The notes beneath the pieces are model-generated. The model was not told where the DNA came from, searched no databases, and worked only from the letters and a program-made list of their open reading frames with translations. A DNA stretch of 10,490 nucleotides from a virus. A program made the translations under genes and the position numbers. The stretch is from UHGV virus genome UHGV-1619017. One strand, 5' to 3'. This document shows positions 1,845 through 9,906 of the stretch, one piece after another (the first letter of the stretch is position 1; each line of letters begins with the position of its first letter).

Positions 1845-2435
1845 CTACACAAAAACAGATGAGATATTGCTACGGTTGATCGATGTGTTACCGCTGCATT
1901 GCAGGGTTACCGTGTTATGAGTGAAATAGCCTTCCGGTGTGCGCGGGGCGTCCAGTTGGTAACTCACGCTTTTGATAACAACGTCGGTAAGGGCTATGTT
2001 CCTACCTATGTTTAACGTTACTGTCTCCGGGCGACGACCGAATGGCGCTACATTGTTCAGTTCCGGCGATTCCATCTTCAGCAATGCTGTAATGGCTGCG
2101 TTCACTTCAAGTTGCGCGTTCGTTGTCGCCATGAAATCAATTACCAGATTAAATTCAGGCGGTTGCTGACCTTCCCAAACAAGCATTGAGTTGAAGAGGG
2201 TTTTTGTTGTTACGCCGGTTGCGGTCTGAAGCGTATCTGCAAGAGAGCCAGCCGCAGCGCTAATACCGCCAAGCAAACCTCCTACTGACTGGTTTTCAAA
2301 TGGTGATTGCCACATTGATGACAGTTCTGCGGTAGATCCTTCACCGATATAACCGACGACCATATCCTCTGAAGAGAGGATATAAACCTTCATTAACGGA
2401 CTTATTCCGTCAGGCATTATCGCGCCGCAAATCAA
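1845..2435 (-). CDS. Hypothetical phage tail-associated protein; start ambiguous (about 182-196 aa)
   Basis: The track start at 2435 is a TTG with GGGAGA about 8 nt upstream. Alternative ATG starts at 2417 (no SD) and 2393 (MKVYILSSEDMVV..., weak SD). Beta-rich protein ending ...VTLQCSGNTSINRSNISSVFV. Function not assignable from sequence. Confidence 0.35.
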   Translation of the reverse strand: MICGAIMPDGISPLMKVYILSSEDMVVGYIGEGSTAELSSMWQSPFENQSVGGLLGGISAAAGSLADTLQTATGVTTKTLFNSMLVWEGQQPPEFNLVIDFMATTNAQLEVNAAITALLKMESPELNNVAPFGRRPETVTLNIGRNIALTDVVIKSVSYQLDAPRTPEGYFTHNTVTLQCSGNTSINRSNISSVFV

Positions 2436-2484
2436 ACGCTATTTCTCCCAGGTAGAGGCCACCTATGCAGGCGGCCTATGTCAC

Positions 2485-3219
2485 TTACAAACCGCGTTTT
2501 TTGCGAATGCGCATTGATTTTTTGCGGTTGATATTCGCTACGGATGTATGTGCTTTGCGGCGTGCTTTTTTCAGCGCCTGTTTTTGCAATGACGTCATGC
2601 GGCGAGGACGCGGGCGTTTACGGATGATGGTAACCTTGCCATCACGAACCACTTTTTTACGTACCGCTTCCAGCATTGCGCTATCACCACCAGCAACGGT
2701 GTAAATGGCAATAGCTGTTTCCATCATGTCGGTGTCGCTTTCGGAAAGAGCGTCATAAACACGTTCGGCAGCTGAGTCATCTTCATCGTCGATCATTTCG
2801 GTTACATCGTCCTGATCAGCGCCAAGCGCAACAGCTGCATCAGCAAGAGCTGCGAGAGCATCGTTATAAGCATCGATTTGCTCATCGGTGAAATCGGTGT
2901 CTTCATCGATATCAGCCAGGCCAGCCATAGTGATTGCTAATGCATCAAATGAGTCAGCCTCCGGATCACCATCTTCAACCCAACCAGCAAGCATGGAAGC
3001 TGCCAGGCTGCGCATATCACCTTGTGCACGGGATTCAACCGCTTCCATCATCGCGGTTTCAATGTCGTCTTTGGGCTTTGGTTGAGTGTCCTTTCCTTTC
3101 TGTCCTGCGCTTTCCAGCATGGCGTTATCATTATTGTCCTGCGTGGATTTATCACCGCTTTCAAAGCAGCCAGAACCGAAAATCGCACGCATAAAAGGAT
3201 CAGCAGTATAATTTTTCAT
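2485..3219 (-). CDS. Bipartite protein with a strongly acidic Asp/Glu-rich body and a highly basic Arg/Lys-rich C-terminal tail (244 aa from the ATG)
   Basis: The track start at 3225 is a TTG; the ATG at 3219..3217 is preceded by GGAGAGAGG with about 7 nt spacing and is the likelier start. Acidic region DIDEDTDFTDEQIDAYNDALAALADAAVALGADQDDVTEMIDDEDDSAAERVYDALSESDTDMMETA; basic tail KRPRPRRMTSLQKQALKKARRKAHTSVANINRKKSMRIRKKRGL. Antisense plus-strand ORFs in this span are short and lack ribosome-binding sites. Confidence 0.5.
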   Translation of the reverse strand: MKNYTADPFMRAIFGSGCFESGDKSTQDNNDNAMLESAGQKGKDTQPKPKDDIETAMMEAVESRAQGDMRSLAASMLAGWVEDGDPEADSFDALAITMAGLADIDEDTDFTDEQIDAYNDALAALADAAVALGADQDDVTEMIDDEDDSAAERVYDALSESDTDMMETAIAIYTVAGGDSAMLEAVRKKVVRDGKVTIIRKRPRPRRMTSLQKQALKKARRKAHTSVANINRKKSMRIRKKRGL

Positions 3220-3233
3220 ATTCAAACCTCTCT

Positions 3234-3255
3234 CCCCCGCATCATTTAGCGGGGG
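3234..3255 (-). other. GC-rich hairpin between the sheath stop and the ribosome-binding site of the acidic/basic protein gene
   Basis: CCCCCGC-atcattta-GCGGGGG, 7-bp stem with 8-nt loop, 7 nt after the sheath stop and directly 5' of the GAGAGG SD. No U-tract on the minus strand, so not a canonical terminator. Confidence 0.3.
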
Positions 3256-3262
3256 TTATAAA

Positions 3263-4921
3263 TCAGCGCATCAGAATTGGCTTACCGACGATTCGGCGAG
3301 CTGTACCGGTCGGACAAACAGACCAGGACACCTCCCACAGATCGATGTCCTTTTGGACAACCTGAACAACATATGGATCTTCACCCTGGGACTTGTCACG
3401 TGGAGTAACCAGCGCACCGGCTGCAACATAACGGTCAAGCAATTCAGTCATTGCTTTCATTAGCGTTTCTTTGGTAATGCCATCCGGTTCGTGCTTAATC
3501 GCCTGAGCTACTTCATAGAAATCTCTGGCGATGGCGTTCATCAAGGAAGACACATGCTGGAATCGCAGATAGTTGTTTTTGCTGTAAGTTGTTAAAGAGT
3601 CGTCAATGTAAACGGACCCGTCAGCAGCAACTGAAACTGGATTAATGCGCGCAAGAACGAACGCTTCACGATCAACTGCACCGATATTTGGAATTCGGGC
3701 AATGTTCTGTCGATCAATAATCGCGCGTGATATACCTGCCGGTGCGTAATGCCAACCACCAACATCCGGTACCAGCGCCACTCCTTTTGCTTTCGCTACG
3801 AATGCATCGCAACTGATGCCGTAAACAACATTCATACCGGTGAAGGTATCTCGGCAGGAGAATGGGAAGTAGTAGCGGCTTGGCTGGTGTGAGCCACCAA
3901 AACTATGGCTTTTAGCTTCTGAAATAGCATTTTCTGGTGTCTGGTTGCCCTTCAGGTCGTAGAACATGTCTACACGAACGTCTTCTGCCAGATTTTTGAG
4001 CGCGGCTAAGGCGGATGCGTCATAGCAGCCCAGTGACAGTAATGCGGTGTAATTAACCTCCGAGGCTTCGAGAACCTTTAATGCTTCCAGATAGTCTTCG
4101 GTGTCAATGGTGGACAAATCGCCATCAGTGCCGCCTTCAAAAGCCACATCCTCAAACATGAGTTGAGCAGCAGATGCTTCCGCATTATCTGCCAGGACGG
4201 CACCAATGCGAGTGGACTGGCTTTCAAGCAGTGTCGGAATCCATGCTGGTTGGCCCATGTCGTTAGTGCCTTCTGGATTGAAGGACACCTGGTGGCTTTC
4301 CAGCACCTCAACAGACCCATCGGTTTGTTTTTCTTTCAGCGTCAGCGTAAAGAGTTCACTTTCTTCATCATCGCGAGTTAGTGATAACGTGCGATTTTGA
4401 GATGCATCACCATCTTTGATGAAGAATAATGCCTTCCCTTCGTCTTTAATCTGGGGAGTTTCTTTTGGTGTGAAAGTTACTGATTGTGTCGTTGCAGTTG
4501 AAGCAACACCCACGCTCAATGTGTCACCTGGATTTACTGTGGTTTCAGCAGGTTCCACGGTAAGTGTTTTGTTGGCCTTTGCCGCTTTTGCTCTGCTCGC
4601 GACGGAAACAGAAATTCCCGGCACCTTCATGTCTTTAGCGCAAACACGAACGACATAACCAGAGCCACCTTTTACGGCACGCTCTACGTGGCGGTATGGT
4701 TCAAATGCCGATCCCAGGCGAGGGTGAATAGGTGAACCTAATACGCTTTGATAAGTCGTATCGTCAACTTTCAGCACTTTACCCGGTGCGCCACGACGCG
4801 ATATTACAAGCCCAGCAAAGACAGATGCGCCACCGCTGGTATTGGTGAGGGTAGCGTCAGCATTTACCGCCATTACAGCAACGCCAGCTGCCTGCCCTAC
4901 CGAAAAACTAATCTTATTCAT
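3263..4921 (-). CDS. Phage tail sheath protein (contractile tail), with an internal Ig-like insertion (552 aa)
   Basis: ATG at 4921..4919, stop TGA at 3265..3263. C-terminal half carries sheath-family landmarks as I recall them: YYFPF, GGWHYAPAGISRA (W-x-APA), ARINPVSVAADGSVYIDDSLT, YLRFQHVSSLMNAI, and a C-terminal beta segment VVQVVQKDIDLWEVSWSVCP. N-terminal AG...G...VLGSP pattern resembles sheath N-termini. Residues about 100-230 are Thr/Ser/Val-rich and Ig-like (LTVEPAETTVNPGDTLSVG). Confidence 0.65.
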   Translation of the reverse strand: MNKISFSVGQAAGVAVMAVNADATLTNTSGGASVFAGLVISRRGAPGKVLKVDDTTYQSVLGSPIHPRLGSAFEPYRHVERAVKGGSGYVVRVCAKDMKVPGISVSVASRAKAAKANKTLTVEPAETTVNPGDTLSVGVASTATTQSVTFTPKETPQIKDEGKALFFIKDGDASQNRTLSLTRDDEESELFTLTLKEKQTDGSVEVLESHQVSFNPEGTNDMGQPAWIPTLLESQSTRIGAVLADNAEASAAQLMFEDVAFEGGTDGDLSTIDTEDYLEALKVLEASEVNYTALLSLGCYDASALAALKNLAEDVRVDMFYDLKGNQTPENAISEAKSHSFGGSHQPSRYYFPFSCRDTFTGMNVVYGISCDAFVAKAKGVALVPDVGGWHYAPAGISRAIIDRQNIARIPNIGAVDREAFVLARINPVSVAADGSVYIDDSLTTYSKNNYLRFQHVSSLMNAIARDFYEVAQAIKHEPDGITKETLMKAMTELLDRYVAAGALVTPRDKSQGEDPYVVQVVQKDIDLWEVSWSVCPTGTARRIVGKPILMR

Positions 4922-4989: not shown

Positions 4990-5268
4990 TCAGGATTCGC
5001 CTACCGTGAAGTTGTCGCCTACGGTTACTTCTTTCGTAGTCGGTTCAACACTGACGGCGCTTACGCTTTTAGGTGCCTCCCTAACAGTGACCGTGCACTG
5101 TGCGGTTTTATTGCCGTCATTAGTTTTGATTGTCAGCACTGCCTGCCCTGCCTTAAGAGCGGTACATGTAGTGCCATCAACCCGGACAATTTCAGGGTGA
5201 TCGGACTCAACAGTGAAAGATTTGTCTGTTGCGTCAGATGGCGTGATAGTTACTTGAATGTTTGCCAT
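4990..5268 (-). CDS. Small Ig-like (Big_2-type) domain protein, possibly a virion decoration or accessory protein (92 aa)
   Basis: ATG at 5268..5266 with AGGAGA 5 nt upstream. Sequence FTVESDHPEIVRVDGTTCTALKAGQAVLTIKTNDGNKTAQCTVTV matches the bacterial Ig-like group 2 pattern (..VATVD..G.VTALKAG.A.ITA...DG.K.A.C.VTV). Ends inside what looks like the start of a second Ig repeat (SVSAVSVEPTTKEVTVGDNFTVGES). Confidence 0.6.
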   Translation of the reverse strand: MANIQVTITPSDATDKSFTVESDHPEIVRVDGTTCTALKAGQAVLTIKTNDGNKTAQCTVTVREAPKSVSAVSVEPTTKEVTVGDNFTVGES

Positions 5269-5414: not shown

Positions 5415-7112
5415 TCACTTTTTTTCGTTAACCTTGCCTGTCAGCATGTCGATAGCACCTTCTTTGGCACGAGTCAGACGCAGGCGGGCGAAATAATTCT
5501 CACCGTTGCGCGGGTGGACTTCGTTGATAGCACTACCCCAGAGAGTGGTGCGGTTAACGAGAGATGGATTGGTTTCGTGCACATACGGGATTGCTGGGAC
5601 CGCATCACCAGCGATCAGCCCGGCTTTACCGATGCCTTCACCGCGACCATAGAAATAAATGTCATCCAGACCTAAGTCATATCCCTGAGCCTTGAATTGC
5701 TCACACACAGGCTGCGGCACTTCGTAAATACGAATCGTGCCAAACAGGGTGCCGATGTACTGCACATACGGTGACTGAACGTAGCCCGGCGCGATTTGGA
5801 AGTGCTGTGGAGGCAGAGAACGCAGGAAGTTAGCTGCGTCACCACCTGCGAAGCCACCGCGAATACCTGTGGTCAGGGTGCGGTTTGCCATTTCCTGAGA
5901 CAGGGCGTTTACTGCGTGGCGCAGGAGGCCGACCCAGGACTCATAGTTTTGAGCTTCAGGCAGAGCCACATCAAATTCACGACCATAAACGGTATGGAAT
6001 ACCAGGGTGCGCAGACGCATGATGTCGGTTTCATGGGAGATCCAGTTCCGCATTGCGGAGAACTGAAGTGCCGCCAATTCAAGGCCGTGTTCACGGCTTA
6101 AATCGGAAGCGGACATTACGGTGTGTTCGGAAGCAATTACGTACTGAGACGGTCGAACTTCATACTTACGCATAGCCTGGTTGATTACCGGAATCAGGCT
6201 TGGATTGCGCTCGATGTTAATTTCGACCTGAACCGCAATTTCAGTCCCTTCTGCTGGCGCTTGAGTGAAGGTAATGTCGATGACACCAGTGTCATAAGCG
6301 ACTTTTGCGGTAGCTGAGAATGCATTGCCTTTGCAGTCTTTATCATTGAAATAAAGGTTGCCATCGCCGTCGTCAACCTTGGACGGTTTGCGGTTGATAA
6401 GCAGCTTGTTATAACCAGCACGCAGCGGGCAGGACTGCCCCTCAAAATTTTGGATGTCGAACTGGAAAGTTTTGGTGCTGCCGTCCCCTTTCGTGGAAAG
6501 GGTATACAGGCGCTTCATTTGAGAATAAACACCAGCGGATTGCATATTCAGTTCGTCACCTTGCTCGAAGGTGCCGAATTTTGTGCCTGCTACGTTGACC
6601 AGTTCATAAATATTTGACTCATCACGATCACAAGGAACAAAAGTACAGGCATCACTGGTAGCAGCACCCAGAGAGGCAGGCAGAATTAGTGCAGCATATT
6701 GAGCAACTTTCATTACGCCGTCAGAGCTACGCATTGATTGCGCGACAGACTCAAACATTGCCTTGCCAGTGCCTACGTGTGTATCGCTGGCACATTCAGT
6801 CATCAGGCGTTCAAGTGCCATGTGTGCGTTTGCCAGGATATCGCTTGCCGGGTAGTGACCATGCTGGCGCTTGTACTCATGCAGAGACATAGCCCACCCA
6901 CCAGCGATCTGACGTGCAACCTCTGGATTTACGCCTTCAAACATAGCCTCCTTCTGGATAGCTTTATCCAGGTTCTCCATCATCGCTGCCTGATCAGCAA
7001 TCATATTGCCCGCAGCATCGGTGGTCGGATCGACGGTCATAGCCATGACGCTTGCCGCCCGATTCATAATCTCGCGCTCGCGATCACGAGCTGGCTGAAT
7101 GTTTTTATTCAC
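5415..7112 (-). CDS. Putative major capsid (head) protein precursor, tentative (565 aa)
   Basis: Long ORF immediately upstream of the Ig-like and sheath genes in the same operon. Start at 7112 is GTG (the track shows M) with AGGG about 8 nt upstream. Size and position next to the sheath gene are consistent with a P1-type gene 23-like arrangement, but that is from memory. The Met/Ala-rich helical N-terminal 100-150 aa could be a cleaved propeptide. No motif-level proof of capsid fold. Confidence 0.4.
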   Translation of the reverse strand: MNKNIQPARDREREIMNRAASVMAMTVDPTTDAAGNMIADQAAMMENLDKAIQKEAMFEGVNPEVARQIAGGWAMSLHEYKRQHGHYPASDILANAHMALERLMTECASDTHVGTGKAMFESVAQSMRSSDGVMKVAQYAALILPASLGAATSDACTFVPCDRDESNIYELVNVAGTKFGTFEQGDELNMQSAGVYSQMKRLYTLSTKGDGSTKTFQFDIQNFEGQSCPLRAGYNKLLINRKPSKVDDGDGNLYFNDKDCKGNAFSATAKVAYDTGVIDITFTQAPAEGTEIAVQVEINIERNPSLIPVINQAMRKYEVRPSQYVIASEHTVMSASDLSREHGLELAALQFSAMRNWISHETDIMRLRTLVFHTVYGREFDVALPEAQNYESWVGLLRHAVNALSQEMANRTLTTGIRGGFAGGDAANFLRSLPPQHFQIAPGYVQSPYVQYIGTLFGTIRIYEVPQPVCEQFKAQGYDLGLDDIYFYGRGEGIGKAGLIAGDAVPAIPYVHETNPSLVNRTTLWGSAINEVHPRNGENYFARLRLTRAKEGAIDMLTGKVNEKK

Positions 7113-7680: not shown

Positions 7681-8139
7681 ATGAGTCACGCGAATCCATC
7701 AAAAACACAATATCGCTTAATGCTGGCGATCGCGTCAGCTATACCAACCAGCCTGAATCCCCCTGCTGGCTATCCCGCTGTTGTTGATGATTGTTTTCAG
7801 TATTACGGTGAAGACATTCTGGGACAGTCGAAAGCACTAAAACAGTTGTGCAAAGCCGGGATTCTTCACTGCATAGGCGATCCGGATGATTTTGTTGTCA
7901 TGCTGGCAGATCGTGACTCTTTTCTGCTGTCCTGGAAAGCCGGGGCGCGCGAAGCGCGTTTGGGGAATGGCATTGGCTACATAGACTATAGCGATTGCCC
8001 GCTGGCATTTGCTGGTGGATATATGCATTGGCATGAGCGAAATAGAGGCCGTCAGCGTCAGTATCGCTTGAGTGACTTTAACGTCTGTCACGGTTTCGAA
8101 GAAGCTGACAGCCAGGACATCTGGCTTCAGGAGCCTTGA
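7681..8139 (+). CDS. Hypothetical Cys/His-rich protein, likely co-transcribed with the upstream ribbon-helix-helix gene (152 aa from ATG 7681)
   Basis: Strong SD AGGGGGG 6 nt upstream of ATG 7681. In-frame ATGs at 7651 and 7660 would overlap the stop of the upstream gene (7661-7663), so the two genes are tightly coupled either way. Contains several Cys and His (C..YY, HC, DCP, HWH, CH) that could bind metal. No family recognised. Confidence 0.4.
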   Translation: MSHANPSKTQYRLMLAIASAIPTSLNPPAGYPAVVDDCFQYYGEDILGQSKALKQLCKAGILHCIGDPDDFVVMLADRDSFLLSWKAGAREARLGNGIGYIDYSDCPLAFAGGYMHWHERNRGRQRQYRLSDFNVCHGFEEADSQDIWLQEP

Positions 8140-8459
8140 TCCCCCTTCCCTTCCCAAATCTCCCTGTTTCTTTGGTTATTCAGTGCGTTTCGTTGGTTGC
8201 ATTCGTCGATCGTGCTGAATAACTGTTCAGCGTATGTCGGATACTTGTTTAACAGCACTGGCGTGTCCTCTGGCACTAAACAAGGGGAGTAATCAATCAG
8301 ATTTGCCTGCGGCTTGCTGGTGGCTTCTACGGTAATTTTCACTGGCACGCTGGTTGATGGCTTTTGCCCGTTCCCGCTGCATCCTGATAACGTCATCAGG
8401 CACACGCACATCGTTAATCCCAGCACGGCGCAACGCATTTTCAAGGCGAGTGATTTCAT
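8127..8459 (-). CDS. o-spanin (Rz1-like outer-membrane lipoprotein spanin subunit), start overlapping the i-spanin gene (110 aa precursor)
   Basis: Strong SD GGGAGGAAA upstream of ATG 8459. Signal peptide ending in lipobox LSGC (MKSLALKMRCAVLGLTMCVCLMTLSGC); mature part is Pro-rich and short with an extra Cys (SPCLVPEDTPV). Overlaps the i-spanin ORF by 167 nt out of frame (8293-8459), the classic overlapped spanin arrangement. Confidence 0.65.
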   Translation of the reverse strand: MKSLALKMRCAVLGLTMCVCLMTLSGCSGNGQKPSTSVPVKITVEATSKPQANLIDYSPCLVPEDTPVLLNKYPTYAEQLFSTIDECNQRNALNNQRNREIWEGKGDQGS

Positions 8460-8793
8460 TCTGGCTTTCCTCCCGCTGTTTGATCAGTCTGTTATTAAGT
8501 TCGGTTGTTTTGCGCTGGTAGTCTTTTTCCAGTTCTTTGATTCTTTCGTTTTCGACCTGCATGGCAGAGCGTGCGCCTTCACTTAACTGCAATGCGGTAG
8601 AAAGCGTGTTGTTCTCGCTTTCCAGTTGTGATTTTGAGTCTTCAAGCGACCGGACATACCTGATGTGTTCGATAACTGCCGTCGTTGTTCGGTAAATTCC
8701 AGAAATGGCTAAAAGCGCAATTACAATCAAAATTATCTTTTTCAAAACCACCCTCTTTAGTTTTTTTGGTGTTAAAAGTGTACCGTTTTGCAT
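8293..8793 (-). CDS. i-spanin (Rz-like inner-membrane spanin subunit) (166 aa)
   Basis: Short basic N-terminus (KKLKRVVLKK), a single hydrophobic transmembrane segment (IILIVIALLAISGIY), then a long charged, coiled-coil-like periplasmic region (SLEDSKSQLESENNTLSTALQ...ERIKELEKDYQRKTTELNNRLIKQREESQNEITRLENALRR). Same architecture as lambda Rz. Its 3' end contains the start of the lipoprotein gene in another frame. Confidence 0.65.
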   Translation of the reverse strand: MQNGTLLTPKKLKRVVLKKIILIVIALLAISGIYRTTTAVIEHIRYVRSLEDSKSQLESENNTLSTALQLSEGARSAMQVENERIKELEKDYQRKTTELNNRLIKQREESQNEITRLENALRRAGINDVRVPDDVIRMQRERAKAINQRASENYRRSHQQAAGKSD

Positions 8794-8818: not shown

Positions 8819-9622
8819 TTATGGTTCCTTTTTGGTGTTCTTTTGGAGCGCATCGATAACGCCTTGTGGCATGATTAAACTGATTGCCGGACTCATTACT
8901 GCATCGTCCAGTAGAGAACCTGTTAACGTGATTGCGACTGCGTTCTCTAAACCTTTGGTTGCCTGAGTTGTTGCCGTTTTAATGCGGTCAGCAAGGGCTA
9001 TGACACTCTCACTTGCTGAATTAATTCCGAAGAGTGAAACTTCAGCTACTGTTACCGCTTCCCGTAAAGCATCAATTTCATCCTGAGTAATGTCCGGAGC
9101 CTGTGCTGCCCCTCCACCAGCCTGTCCACCATCACTATCACCACCAGCACTCCCGGCAGCTTCAATTTTTGCGTTTATGGCGTTCATGGCGGTATTCAGA
9201 TCGTCAAGTTTCAGCGCCGCCAATGCGTCCGTTAATGATTGCGGGATGGAAACATTCCCCATCCCCTCTACCAGGGCGAACGCTGGCGCGGGGATCAGTT
9301 CATTACCTTTTGCGTGGCACTCCCAGCCAATCTTCATCTGTAACAACTCTGATGGCGTGGTGTATGGGGAAAGAGAGTCAGCCAGTGATGAAGAAGACTT
9401 GCTGGCCTCATTGAGCTGTTCGGAAAATCCAAGCAATTGAGTCGTCCAGGCCGACACTGAATCAGGATAGGTTTTATCAGGGTGAACCATTTCCTGTATT
9501 GCGCTCGCGAGTGACGAGGCTTTTGAAGAAGCCGCCAGGCTTATGGTTATTGATTCCGGTGTGGATGCACCAGCACCAGACAGAATTTGGAAGGCTTTAA
9601 CTTCACCTATTGAATCAAGCAT
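8819..9622 (-). CDS. Hypothetical protein, two-part with Ser/Ala-rich N-terminal half and Gly-rich linker (267 aa)
   Basis: ATG at 9622..9620 overlaps the TAA stop of the upstream PAAR-like gene (TAATG, 1-nt overlap), indicating translational coupling. Low-complexity linker AAGSAGGDSDGGQAGGGAAQAP. No transmembrane segment, no catalytic motif I can recognise. Antisense plus-strand ORFs here (9090..9440, 9103..9414) are artefacts. Confidence 0.45.
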   Translation of the reverse strand: MLDSIGEVKAFQILSGAGASTPESITISLAASSKASSLASAIQEMVHPDKTYPDSVSAWTTQLLGFSEQLNEASKSSSSLADSLSPYTTPSELLQMKIGWECHAKGNELIPAPAFALVEGMGNVSIPQSLTDALAALKLDDLNTAMNAINAKIEAAGSAGGDSDGGQAGGGAAQAPDITQDEIDALREAVTVAEVSLFGINSASESVIALADRIKTATTQATKGLENAVAITLTGSLLDDAVMSPAISLIMPQGVIDALQKNTKKEP

Positions 9623-9906
9623 TATGCGACCTGAAAAATATCCTCGCCGTTAGCGATAACAGAACCACAAGAAAGCGGATCGCCTACGCAGACTACTCCC
9701 TTTCCACCTATTGAATACCATGCCCGTGTCGATACAGCCGATCCGGGATGTGCACTGTTGCCATCTGTATGGCTGGGAAACATGGCACCATCCACAACAA
9801 CTGGCTTACCGTTGACGGTGAACCAGGGAACGGTTTCAGCTACCAGTCGCGGCGGAAATCCTCCGTGACCGGAACAAAGTGTGTCGCTGGTGGCTATTGC
9901 GCTCAT
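9622..9906 (-). CDS. PAAR-like small protein, candidate spike-tip protein of a contractile injection apparatus (94 aa)
   Basis: ATG at 9906..9904 with AGGAGA 6 nt upstream. Three repeated beta-turn segments with the spacing of PAAR repeats but degenerate motifs: SDTLCSGHGGFPP, VNGKPVVVDGAMFPSH, GKGVVCVGDPLSCGSVIANG. Compare canonical GD..C..HGG.I, INGKPAAR.GD, VGD...HGG.I. Memory-based, no HMM run. Confidence 0.4.
   Translation of the reverse strand: MSAIATSDTLCSGHGGFPPRLVAETVPWFTVNGKPVVVDGAMFPSHTDGNSAHPGSAVSTRAWYSIGGKGVVCVGDPLSCGSVIANGEDIFQVA

What the first reader, a model, noticed from the sequence alone, without database searches (positions are those of the whole stretch)
2485..3219. Bipartite protein inside the tail module: DNA-like acidic body fused to a strongly basic C-terminal tail
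About 120 residues are dominated by Asp/Glu in short helical-looking repeats, followed by a roughly 45-residue Arg/Lys-rich tail. Acidic proteins in phages include DNA mimics that block restriction enzymes and scaffold or chaperone proteins; a basic tail suggests nucleic-acid or membrane binding. Its position directly after the sheath gene, preceded by a hairpin and a strong SD, is unusual for a tail operon.
Basis: partly seen in the sequence, partly recalled or inferred. Interest (0 to 1): 0.6.

Follow-up and report, generated by a model that had tools for sequence, protein, structure and literature searches.

The report
Head-core protein mislabelled as tail
This gene is the phage D6 copy of phage P1 gene 21; its sequence suggests an internal head-assembly protein that the head-maturation protease cuts into an acidic body and a very basic tail peptide, rather than a DNA mimic or the tail part it is currently labelled as.

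Summary
The ORF is real: window 2485-3219, minus strand, 244 aa, 100% identical to phage D6 orf47 and about 41% identical to P1 gp21. The charge layout is real and holds across the family (body about -32, tail about +23). The "repeats" are not supported. The position after the sheath gene is the rule in all P1-like loci examined, not an oddity.

New result: three invariant short motifs flank the domains (AMLE36|S, AMME59|A, AMLE184|A). [quoted passage not shown] A matrix built only from capsid sites ranks the target among the D6 proteome's top hits, together with the capsid protein, the prohead protease and DarA. In a second clade the cut-site residue is Asp in both the capsid protein and this protein (64 loci E/E/E, 58 D/D/D, none mixed between capsid site and site 3).

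P1 gp21 is absent from the published virion proteome and cryo-EM models. The basic module and overall layout resemble T4 prohead core protein gp68 (hhalign up to 72%; HMMER finds nothing).

Best reading: a protease-processed prohead core or scaffold-type protein. Rivals: a tail-assembly factor (the legacy label) or an injected DNA mimic. No wet-lab evidence exists yet.

The parts
2485..3219 (-). Gene for the 244-aa bipartite protein (orthologue of phage D6 orf47 and P1 gene 21; PHROG 1053)
   Evidence: ORF list and sequence. 100% aa identity to D6 YP_009914724.1 and about 41% to P1 gp21. PHROG 1053 E 3.4e-85, no Pfam hit.
3227..3232 (-). Shine-Dalgarno GAGAGG, 7 nt upstream of the ATG
   Evidence: Read directly from the sequence.
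3234..3255 (-). GC-rich hairpin (CCCCCGC - 8 nt loop - GCGGGGG) between the sheath stop and the SD; no U-run, so not a canonical terminator
   Evidence: Fold -18.4 kcal/mol, z -2.63. No minus-strand terminator-like site reported. P1 has only a 9-nt gap here.
3112..3219 (-). Residues 1-36: disordered N-terminal leader ending in predicted cleavage site 1; possible capsid-targeting or propeptide segment
   Evidence: pLDDT below 50 for residues 1-7 and 15-48. Only the AMLES motif is conserved in this stretch.
3109..3123 (-). Predicted protease site 1: A-M-L-E36|S37
   Evidence: E36 and S37 are invariant. Same pentapeptide as the P1 capsid cleavage site AMLE120|S. PSSM 19.6 bits, third best in the D6 proteome. 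Kept in 54 of 63 distinct clade-1 sequences.
3040..3054 (-). Predicted protease site 2: A-M-M-E59|A60
   Evidence: E59 is invariant in A2. Motif kept in 59 of 63. PSSM 7.4 bits. Lies in the first helix, so the weakest of the three.
2668..3042 (-). Residues 60-184: acidic helical domain (125 aa, net -32, pI 4.1, 13.1 kDa)
   Evidence: Composition. AlphaFold2 helices 50-175 with pLDDT about 90. Same 125-aa spacing between sites 2 and 3 in P1 gp21.
2665..2679 (-). Predicted protease site 3: A-M-L-E184|A185, in the flexible linker just before the basic module
   Evidence: E184 is invariant. Motif kept in 61 of 63. PSSM 14.0 bits. Linker 176-183 has pLDDT below 50. The cut-site residue switches to Asp together with the capsid site in clade 2.
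2488..2667 (-). Residues 185-244: basic C-terminal module (60 aa, net +24, 7.1 kDa): beta-hairpin 187-200 plus long helix 210-241; the most conserved part of the family
   Evidence: Alignments. Model pLDDT 80-94. Alone it matches PHROG 1053 at E 2.9e-25. Duplicated in some relatives. Aligns end to end with the C-terminal module of T4 gp68.
6744..6764 (-). Reference site: maturation cleavage site of the window's major capsid protein (K-A-M-F-E121|S-V), homologous to P1 gp23 E120|S121
   Evidence: P1 site mapped by Edman sequencing (PMC9024508). Alignment of 64 distinct capsid proteins.
5415..7112 (-). Major capsid protein gene (gp23 homologue), first gene of the same gene string
   Evidence: PHROG 1014. 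PDB 9ukm P1 Gp23, E 2.7e-162. D6 annotation.
3263..4921 (-). Tail sheath gene (gp22 homologue), immediately upstream
   Evidence: PHROG 1036 E 7e-197. D6 annotation.
1845..2417 (-). pmgG homologue (baseplate/tube-linking protein), immediately downstream; with bplB (1345-1836) a possible target of polarity
   Evidence: PHROG 1114. P1 cryo-EM role (PMC12810830). Essentiality (PMC9024508). CRISPRi polarity caveat (PMC10695390).

Best explanation
The protein is an internal prohead (core or scaffold-type) protein of a P1-like phage-plasmid and a substrate of the head-maturation protease Pro. It is not a tail component. Proposed mechanism, all steps inferred: the precursor is built into the procapsid, probably held there by its conserved basic C-terminal module. 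When Pro is activated, it cuts after Glu36, (Glu59) and Glu184, at the same A-M-(L/F)-E|S/A motif it uses to remove the capsid propeptide. This detaches the 13-kDa acidic helical domain (net -32) from the 7-kDa basic module (net +24). The acidic pieces then leave or are expelled as DNA enters. This resembles the degradation of T4 core proteins gp22, gp67 and gp68, and the release of the herpesvirus scaffold by a cut just before its capsid-binding tail. What is shown here: the motifs, their conservation, their proteome-wide specificity, and their co-variation with the capsid site. What is inferred: that cleavage actually happens, that the protein sits in the prohead, and its exact role (size or shape control, scaffold, or charge management).
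For: 1. P1 gp23 is cut at AMLE120|S (Edman sequencing, PMC9024508). The site is conserved as (A)M[LF]E|S[VA] in 64 distinct P1-like capsid proteins.
2. The target has AMLE36|S, AMME59|A and AMLE184|A. E36, S37 and E184 are invariant in A1 and E59 in A2. The sites are kept in 54, 59 and 61 of 63 distinct relatives.
3. Sites 1 and 3 lie in low-confidence linkers that flank the folded domain.
4. A PSSM built only from capsid sites was scanned over all 108 D6 proteins. It gives 7 hits of at least 14 bits against 0.16 expected in shuffles. All 7 fall in gp23, Pro (3), DarA (1) and this protein (2). No tail protein scores above 8 bits.
5. The DarA hit (E65) matches known biology. DarA loses an N-terminal piece of about 9 kDa, and the P1 cryo-EM model lacks density for residues 1-69. 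P1 has DLLE68|AIS at the aligned position (PMC12810830).
6. Co-variation across 125 distinct loci: 64 have E at the capsid site and at sites 1 and 3; 58 have D at all three; none is mixed between the capsid site and site 3. The residues after the cut also track in a few loci, for example LD|GV in both proteins.
7. In Xanthomonas phage Rb1, a D-type PSSM built from other phages ranks the homologue's site second in the proteome, next to an internal head protein, the protease, a DarB-like protein and the capsid protein.
8. P1 gp21 is missing from the virion LC-MS/MS table, from the protein lists of two cryo-EM studies, and from PDB.
9. The basic module aligns with the C-terminal module of T4 prohead core protein gp68: hhalign 72%, E 3.4e-5; score about 35-37 against 15 +/- 3 (max 27.5) for 60 column-shuffled controls. 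T4 gp68 has the same order of parts, with an L-x-E site just before the module.
10. T4 gp68 is a protease-degraded core protein that is not essential for assembly (PMC9958956).
11. In one lineage the gene sits directly after DarA-like, DarB-like and Ulx-like genes for head-internal proteins.
Against: 1. The P1 record labels gene 21 'baseplate or tail tube', a label I recall as coming from amber-mutant electron microscopy. If those mutations lie in this ORF and are not polar, heads form without it and tails do not.
2. In P1 itself the capsid-derived PSSM scores the aligned sites poorly (QLME|S 2.6 bits, MILE|A 4.7 bits) and does not pick out DarA.
3. The E/D switch separates two clades, so it counts as roughly one evolutionary event.
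4. The T4 gp68 link is weak: hhalign is only 10-13% with two other family alignments, and HMMER finds nothing above controls.
5. The gene is not next to the protease or upstream of the capsid gene as classical scaffold genes are. Its tightest linkage is to pmgG, a baseplate gene.
6. Absence from virions is equally expected for a tail chaperone.
7. No biochemical evidence of cleavage or of prohead location exists.
Confidence: 0.6

Rival explanations
1. It is a tail-assembly factor, for example a chaperone for the tube, baseplate or tape measure, that is needed to build tails but is not kept in the virion. The acidic domain would coat a partner. The basic tail would engage the negatively charged tube lumen or the tube protein.
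For: The P1 GenBank note for gene 21 reads 'baseplate or tail tube', and D6, SJ46 and RCS47 records carry tail labels. The gene sits among tail genes and stays linked to pmgG even where the sheath and capsid genes are elsewhere. It is absent from the P1 virion proteome and structures, as chaperones are. The P1 tube lumen is reported to be negatively charged (PMC10304247).
Against: This does not explain three invariant copies of the capsid cleavage motif at the domain borders, their ranking with Pro, DarA and the capsid protein, or the joint E-to-D switch with the capsid site. There is no match to any tail-chaperone family in Pfam, PHROGs or NCBIfam. No overlapping minus-strand ORF exists that a G/GT-type frameshift could use. 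The usual chaperone slot before the tape-measure gene is held by pmgB. The tail phenotype could reflect polarity on pmgG and bplB, or amber mutations that actually lie in those genes; CRISPRi data for gene 21 are explicitly uninformative because of polarity.
Confidence: 0.2
2. It is an internal head protein delivered with the DNA, whose acidic domain acts as a DNA mimic or other anti-restriction factor. This is the first reader's idea, recast in the style of T4 IPI: an N-terminal targeting peptide is removed by the protease and the mature protein is injected.
For: Strongly acidic body. Predicted N-terminal processing like T4 internal proteins. Adjacency to DarA-, DarB- and Ulx-like anti-restriction genes in one lineage. 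The acidic fragment gives tryptic peptides of 83 and 34 residues, so it would be nearly invisible to trypsin LC-MS/MS.
Against: No structural similarity to any known DNA mimic. The gene is a strictly conserved core gene in fixed synteny, down to 28% capsid and sheath identity within clade 1 and in a second clade, unlike typical anti-defence genes. The most conserved part is the basic module, not the acidic surface.
Confidence: 0.06
3. The charge pattern is incidental. The protein is simply a poorly characterised structural virion component, in the baseplate or neck, that proteomics and cryo-EM missed.
For: Only 6 tryptic peptides of usable size, 5 of them in the first 64 residues. Some predicted P1 virion proteins (PmgA, UpfC, gp5, gp26) were also missed by mass spectrometry.
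Against: The 2026 P1 cryo-EM study assigns proteins from head to baseplate, found the four that mass spectrometry had missed, and does not mention gp21. The charge layout is held within narrow limits in 115 distinct sequences. The motif evidence is left unexplained.
Confidence: 0.05

Closest known systems
Phage P1 gp21 (gene 21; PHROG 1053), also P7 upf54.2 and D6 orf47
   Same: Orthologue: 100% identical to D6 orf47 and about 41% to P1 gp21. Same place in the gene string 23-22-21-pmgG-bplB. Same acidic body of 125 residues between sites 2 and 3, and same basic tail.
   Different: Nothing essential differs. The D6-type protein has cleaner AM(L/M)E motifs than P1 (QLME, MILE, MLTE) and a shorter N-terminal linker. 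The family's function is unknown in PHROGs, and records label it inconsistently as tail tube, baseplate or hypothetical.
T4 prohead core protein gp68 (with gp67 and gp22), degraded by the T4 gp21 protease
   Same: Acidic helical N-part, a hydrophobic-x-Glu site just before a beta-hairpin-like 'K-x-V-x-x-G', then a long basic helix ending ...RK..GL at the C-terminus. Profile-profile match of 56 columns running to both C-termini. Same order of predicted secondary-structure elements. Occurs in phages with T4-type capsid protein, portal and protease. T4 gp68 is a core protein cut to small peptides and absent from mature heads.
   Different: The target's acidic domain is twice as long. It has an N-terminal leader with its own site. 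It is encoded after the sheath gene rather than between portal and protease. Homology is not established: HMMER finds nothing and hhalign gives 10-72% depending on the alignment.
Classical scaffolding proteins with a basic C-terminal coat-binding element (P22 gp8 type), and the herpesvirus scaffold released by a protease cut before its capsid-binding tail
   Same: Acidic, helical, absent from virions, with the most conserved element a small basic C-terminal module. A predicted protease site lies directly upstream of that module. (The comparison rests on my knowledge of those systems; the features of the target come.)
   Different: No sequence or fold match. The tail is far more basic (+24 in 60 residues). 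The gene is not adjacent to and upstream of the capsid gene. P1-type capsid proteins already carry a 120-residue propeptide thought to act as the scaffold.
Tail assembly chaperones (lambda gpG/gpGT type)
   Same: Small, acidic, encoded in a tail gene neighbourhood, not found in virions.
   Different: No family match, no frameshift partner ORF, and not placed between the tube and tape-measure genes. It carries head-protease motifs.
DNA-mimic anti-restriction proteins (Ocr, ArdA)
   Same: High density of Asp/Glu on a helical protein.
   Different: No fold similarity. Fused to a polybasic module. A core syntenic gene rather than an accessory early gene.

Membership tests
P1 gp21 / PHROG 1053 family | Significant full-length sequence similarity | tested here: met
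   PHROG 1053 E 3.4e-85 over residues 1-244. tblastn to P1, P7 and D6. 488 representative clusters at E <= 1e-3.
P1 gp21 / PHROG 1053 family | Conserved position after the sheath gene and before pmgG | tested here: met
   All 84 loci of the first set. The second clade of 80 loci also keeps capsid - sheath - this gene, except 3 loci with neither upstream.
Prohead-protease substrates (prohead core / internal proteins) | Carries the protease's recognition motif as defined on the capsid protein of the same phage group | tested here: met
   AMLE|S is identical to the P1 gp23 site. PSSM hits of 19.6, 14.0 and 7.4 bits. 7 hits of at least 14 bits in the proteome against 0.16 expected, all in gp23, Pro, DarA and this protein.
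Prohead-protease substrates (prohead core / internal proteins) | Motif changes together with the capsid site when protease specificity changes | tested here: met
   64 loci E/E/E, 58 loci D/D/D, none mixed between the capsid site and site 3. Caveat: essentially one clade split.
Prohead-protease substrates (prohead core / internal proteins) | Physically present in proheads and cleaved during maturation | not testable with these tools
   Needs proheads from a protease mutant and N-terminal or top-down mass spectrometry. Only indirect support here: absence from P1 virions.
T4 gp68 prohead core protein family | Detectable sequence homology | tested here: inconclusive
   hhalign A3 vs A6: 72%, E 3.4e-5; re-run score 34.8 against 15.0 +/- 3.2 for shuffled controls. 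But A2 vs A6 gives 10-13%, and HMMER scores only 2 bits, no better than controls. Homologues of the target show no precomputed Pfam domain, whereas gp68 homologues carry PF26830.
T4 gp68 prohead core protein family | Same domain order: acidic helices, protease site, hairpin plus basic helix to the C-terminus | tested here: met
   Sequences and AlphaFold2 secondary structure of both proteins.
Classical scaffolding proteins | Required for correct procapsid assembly | not testable with these tools
   No non-polar knockout exists. CRISPRi knock-down is confounded by polarity.
Classical scaffolding proteins | Gene immediately upstream of the major capsid gene or next to the protease | tested here: not met
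   It lies two to three genes downstream of the capsid gene, and the protease is about 27 kb away in D6.
Tail assembly chaperone (gpG/GT type) | Placed between the tube and tape-measure genes, with a frameshift extension ORF | tested here: not met
   pmgB occupies the slot before sit. No overlapping minus-strand ORF of at least 50 aa at the 3' end.
Tail assembly chaperone (gpG/GT type) | Match to a known chaperone family | tested here: not met
   No such hit in Pfam, PHROGs or NCBIfam.
DNA-mimic anti-restriction proteins | Fold or sequence related to a known mimic (Ocr, ArdA and others) | tested here: not met
DNA-mimic anti-restriction proteins | Inhibits restriction enzymes | not testable with these tools
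   Requires experiment.

The most novel reading that the evidence does not exclude
The protein is a charge-masked precursor of a polycationic internal peptide. The acidic domain neutralises the +24 tail until the prohead protease separates them inside the capsid. The 60-residue basic peptide then stays with the packaged DNA as a protamine-like counter-ion, or as a peptide injected with the DNA. It has escaped notice because trypsin reduces it to peptides too small for LC-MS/MS (in P1 the largest are 6-7 residues) and because it would be disordered in cryo-EM maps. This would add a hidden component to the classic P1 virion.
Probability: 0.15. Interest if true: 0.75.

Novelty: new member of a known kind. 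Interest (0 to 1): 0.55.

Why it matters
P1 is a classic model phage and the prototype of the widespread phage-plasmids. Two recent studies state that no separate scaffolding protein has been identified in P1, and they do not discuss gene 21. If the reading here is right, three things follow:
- A gene labelled 'tail tube' or 'baseplate' in many database records belongs to the head.
- P1-like phages have a T4-style processed core protein in addition to the capsid propeptide and DarA/Hdf.
- The protease motif A-M-(L/F)-E|S (or L-D|S in the second clade) becomes a usable predictor of head-internal proteins in this group. That is relevant to P1 head-size control and to using the P1 capsid for protein delivery.

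The hypothesis can be tested directly with a few standard experiments.

Tried and rejected
- Pfam, NCBIfam and a PDB sequence-profile search on the target gave nothing meaningful.
- The internal-repeat test and Tandem Repeats Finder were negative.
- The hairpin upstream is not a canonical terminator. The second hairpin, downstream of the gene, is not significant against shuffles.
- Replicating the PSSM census in P1 itself was only partly successful: gp23 and Pro rank high, but gp21 and DarA score low because P1 uses looser variants such as LME, ILE, LTE and LLE.
- An HMMER profile of the family against T4 gp68 homologues found no signal above reversed or shuffled controls. hhalign against T4 gp22 found no relation.
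- The two key older papers, Walker & Walker 1983 and Lobocka et al. 2004, are not held in the library. The amber-mutant phenotype and the basis for assigning 'gene 21' to this ORF could therefore not be checked.
- A search for relatives of the 412-aa two-module protein P0254 in viral contigs found none. Alignment A4 was too divergent for locus searching.
- Complex prediction with the capsid or tube protein was not attempted, because the structure tool returns no contact information.
Full report
WHAT THE WINDOW IS

The 10.5-kb window is 94% identical at the DNA level to Escherichia phage D6, a P1-like plasmid prophage. All morphogenesis genes lie on the minus strand. Their order is:
- major capsid protein gp23 (5415-7112)
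- a small Ig-like protein (4990-5268)
- tail sheath gp22 (3263-4921)
- the target (2485-3219)
- pmgG (1845-2417)
- tube protein BplB (1345-1836)
- pmgC and tub

The target is 244 aa, starting at the ATG at 3219 with GAGAGG 7 nt upstream. It is 100% identical to D6 orf47, which is annotated 'putative baseplate protein; similar to P1 gene 21'. It is about 41% identical to P1 gp21. It belongs to PHROG 1053 (unknown function) and has no Pfam or NCBIfam family.

CHECKING THE OBSERVATION

The charge pattern is real.
- Residues 51-186 are 28.7% Asp/Glu with only 3 Lys/Arg (net -36).
- Residues 187-244 are 43% Lys/Arg (net +24).
- Across 115 distinct relatives, the body carries -25 to -38 and the tail +14 to +28.

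AlphaFold2, run with 39 homologues, gives these elements:
- a disordered N-terminus (low confidence for residues 1-7 and 15-48)
- a confident helical domain (50-175)
- a flexible linker (176-183)
- a beta-hairpin (187-200)
- a long basic helix (210-241)

The hairpin and Shine-Dalgarno sequence upstream are there. The 'repeats' are not: the internal alignment is no better than shuffles, and no tandem repeat is found.

The position after the sheath gene is not unusual for this phage group. It is the same in P1, in all 84 loci of a first set and in a second, distant clade of 80 loci, apart from three noted below.

WHAT IS KNOWN ABOUT THE P1 ORTHOLOGUE

- The P1 GenBank record labels gene 21 'baseplate or tail tube'.
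- gp21 (ORF 56) is missing from the P1 virion LC-MS/MS table, although its neighbours ORF 54, 55, 57 and 58 are all listed (PMC9024508).
- It is not mentioned in two cryo-EM studies that assign proteins from head to baseplate (PMC10304247 and PMC12810830).
- A family profile hits nothing in PDB, although P1 Gp23 is there as 9ukm.
- A CRISPRi knock-down of gene 21 abolishes plating. But the gene lies upstream of the essential pmgG and bplB, and the authors state that polarity makes such results uninformative (PMC10695390).
- Both recent P1 papers say that no separate scaffolding protein has been identified.

THE KEY FINDING: PROTEASE MOTIFS

P1 gp23 is cut between E120 and S121, in the sequence NKAMLE|SVAAEM (Edman sequencing). 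The window's gp23 has KAMFE121|SV at the same place. The site is conserved as (A)M[LF]E|S[VA] in 64 distinct capsid proteins.

The target carries three such motifs: NAMLE36|SA, TAMME59|AV and SAMLE184|AV. E36, S37 and E184 are invariant in alignment A1, and E59 in A2, even though the N-terminal region is otherwise variable. The three sites are kept in 54, 59 and 61 of 63 distinct relatives. Sites 1 and 3 lie in the low-confidence linkers on either side of the folded acidic domain. Relatives with longer N-termini carry extra copies of the motif, such as MFES and LFES.

I built a scoring matrix only from 22 distinct capsid sites and scanned all 108 annotated D6 proteins (26,676 residues).

| Protein and site | Score (bits) |
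|---|---|
| gp23 E121 | 23.1 |
| Pro E212 | 20.6 |
| target E36 | 19.6 |
| Pro E171 | 16.7 |
| DarA E65 | 14.8 |
| Pro E294 | 14.3 |
| target E184 | 14.0 |

No tail protein exceeds 8 bits. Seven hits of at least 14 bits compare with 0.16 expected in shuffled proteomes. All seven fall in four proteins that hold 6.7% of the residues.

The DarA hit fits independent data. DarA is known to lose an N-terminal fragment of about 9 kDa, and the P1 cryo-EM model lacks density for residues 1-69. The aligned P1 sequence is DLLE68|AIS. Multiple motif copies in the C-terminal half of the protease match the auto-processing described for related prohead proteases (PMC5694885).

CO-VARIATION

A second clade, related to Xanthomonas phage Rb1, has Asp instead of Glu at the capsid site (LD|SA). 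Its gp21-like proteins have Asp at both site 1 and site 3 (LD|S, LD|AVYK).

| Capsid site | Site 1 | Site 3 | Distinct loci |
|---|---|---|---|
| E | E | E | 64 |
| D | D | D | 58 |
| E | other | E | 3 (apparent site-1 misalignments) |

Among the 125 distinct loci, none is mixed between the capsid site and site 3. In some loci the residues after the cut also track, for example LD|GV in both proteins.

In Rb1, a D-type matrix built from other phages' capsid sites puts the gp21-like site second in the whole proteome. The other high-ranking hits are an annotated internal head protein, the protease, a DarB-like protein and the capsid protein. Twelve hits of at least 10 bits compare with 2.25 expected. 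The split is essentially one evolutionary event, but it involves three sites in two proteins.

LINK TO T4

P1-type heads use a T4-like capsid fold and a T4-like portal (weak Pfam hit). The Rb1 protease is annotated 'prohead core protein protease'.

T4 gp68 is a 141-aa prohead core protein with a similar layout. It has acidic helices, a conserved L-x-E67 just before 'IVKHVSARGEITR...', and a basic helix that ends '...RKRKKALKRRKALGLS'. The target ends '...RKKSMRIRKKRGL'.

| Comparison with the gp68 alignment | hhalign probability | Other figures |
|---|---|---|
| Diverse family alignment A3 | 72% | E 3.4e-5, 56 columns running to both C-termini |
| A3, re-run | 67% | score 34.8; 60 column-shuffled controls 15.0 +/- 3.2, max 27.5 |
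| Alignment A2 and the large family alignment | 10-13% | |
| HMMER family profile | no signal | 2 bits, no better than controls |

I treat homology as unproven and the resemblance in layout as real. AlphaFold2 of gp68 gives the same order of elements.

In T4, gp68 is present at about 240 copies per prohead and is not essential for assembly. The protease degrades it to small peptides (PMC9958956).

INTERPRETATION

The best-supported reading is that this protein is a substrate of the head-maturation protease. It would therefore be an internal prohead core or scaffold-type protein, not a tail part.

Cleavage would give these fragments:
- 1-36
- 37-59
- 60-184 (13.1 kDa, net -32)
- 185-244 (7.1 kDa, net +24)

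The basic module is the most conserved part and is duplicated in some relatives. That suggests a specific partner, such as the capsid interior, the propeptide or DNA, rather than a generic polycation.

The main counter-evidence is the legacy tail label. Three things could reconcile it: polarity of amber mutations on pmgG and bplB, amber mutations that actually lie in those genes, or a core protein that is dispensable for head formation, like T4 gp68. I could not check the original papers.

The tail-chaperone rival explains the absence from virions and the linkage to pmgG, but not the motif data. The DNA-mimic idea has no structural or distributional support.

One caveat applies to all 'absent from virion' arguments. 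Trypsin gives only six peptides of usable size for this protein, five of them in the first 64 residues, which would be cleaved off. The acidic and basic fragments would be almost invisible to LC-MS/MS. A retained fragment therefore cannot be excluded.

VERDICT

The DNA-mimic interpretation is not supported. The gene is the known P1 gene 21 family, but its current tail annotation is probably wrong.

It is most likely a new member of a known kind, the protease-processed prohead core or scaffold proteins. All mechanistic steps remain inferences from sequence until cleavage and prohead location are shown experimentally.

Noticed in passing
window 8293-8793 (-) and 8127-8459 (-): Two overlapping ORFs in different frames look like an Rz/Rz1-type spanin pair. 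One is 166 aa with an N-terminal membrane helix and coiled coil (PHROG 214, E 1.6e-15). The other is 110 aa with a lipoprotein signal ending LSGC (PHROG 456, E 2.8e-5). The D6 record calls them hypothetical and starts both later.
   Followed up: partly
window 4990-5268 (-): A 92-aa Big_2 Ig-like protein is encoded between the capsid and sheath genes. It is absent from P1 and was detected only in the D6-near loci and a few others. It may be a capsid or tail decoration.
   Followed up: partly
L085:22494-23492 (D6 genome, outside the window): The homologue of the P1 prohead protease Pro is labelled 'tail fiber protein' in D6 RefSeq and in PHROG 1801. It has four capsid-type cleavage motifs in its C-terminal half, which suggests auto-processing.
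   Followed up: partly
window 6744-6764, plus residues 46 and 59 of gp23 (about 6975 and 6936): The capsid propeptide carries two further protease-type motifs (AAMME46|N, EAMFE59|G) besides the main KAMFE121|S site. The propeptide may therefore be cut into pieces.
   Followed up: no
window 3234-3255 and 2456-2477 (-): GC-rich hairpins without U-runs sit in both intergenic gaps flanking the target, each just upstream of the next gene's ribosome-binding site. They may be mRNA stability or processing elements that set expression ratios within the capsid-sheath-tube transcript. P1 lacks the first gap.
   Followed up: partly
L131:55-10592 (also L129, L142): In one lineage the gp21-like gene is not preceded by the capsid and sheath genes. 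Instead it follows DarA-like, DarB-like (2046 aa) and Ulx-like genes, and it is still followed by pmgG.
   Followed up: partly
proteins P0195 (408 aa) and P0254 (412 aa): Distant family members carry two copies of the basic hairpin-helix module. P0254 also has an N-terminal zinc-ribbon-like CxxC...CxxC segment. Their genomic contexts could not be retrieved.
   Followed up: partly
window 8819-9622 (-) and 9622-9906 (-): Homologues of UpfB (the baseplate 'tripod' in the P1 cryo-EM study) and the PAAR-type spike tip UpfC lie at the right end of the window, separated from the other baseplate genes by the spanin-like pair and two plus-strand ORFs of unknown function.
   Followed up: no
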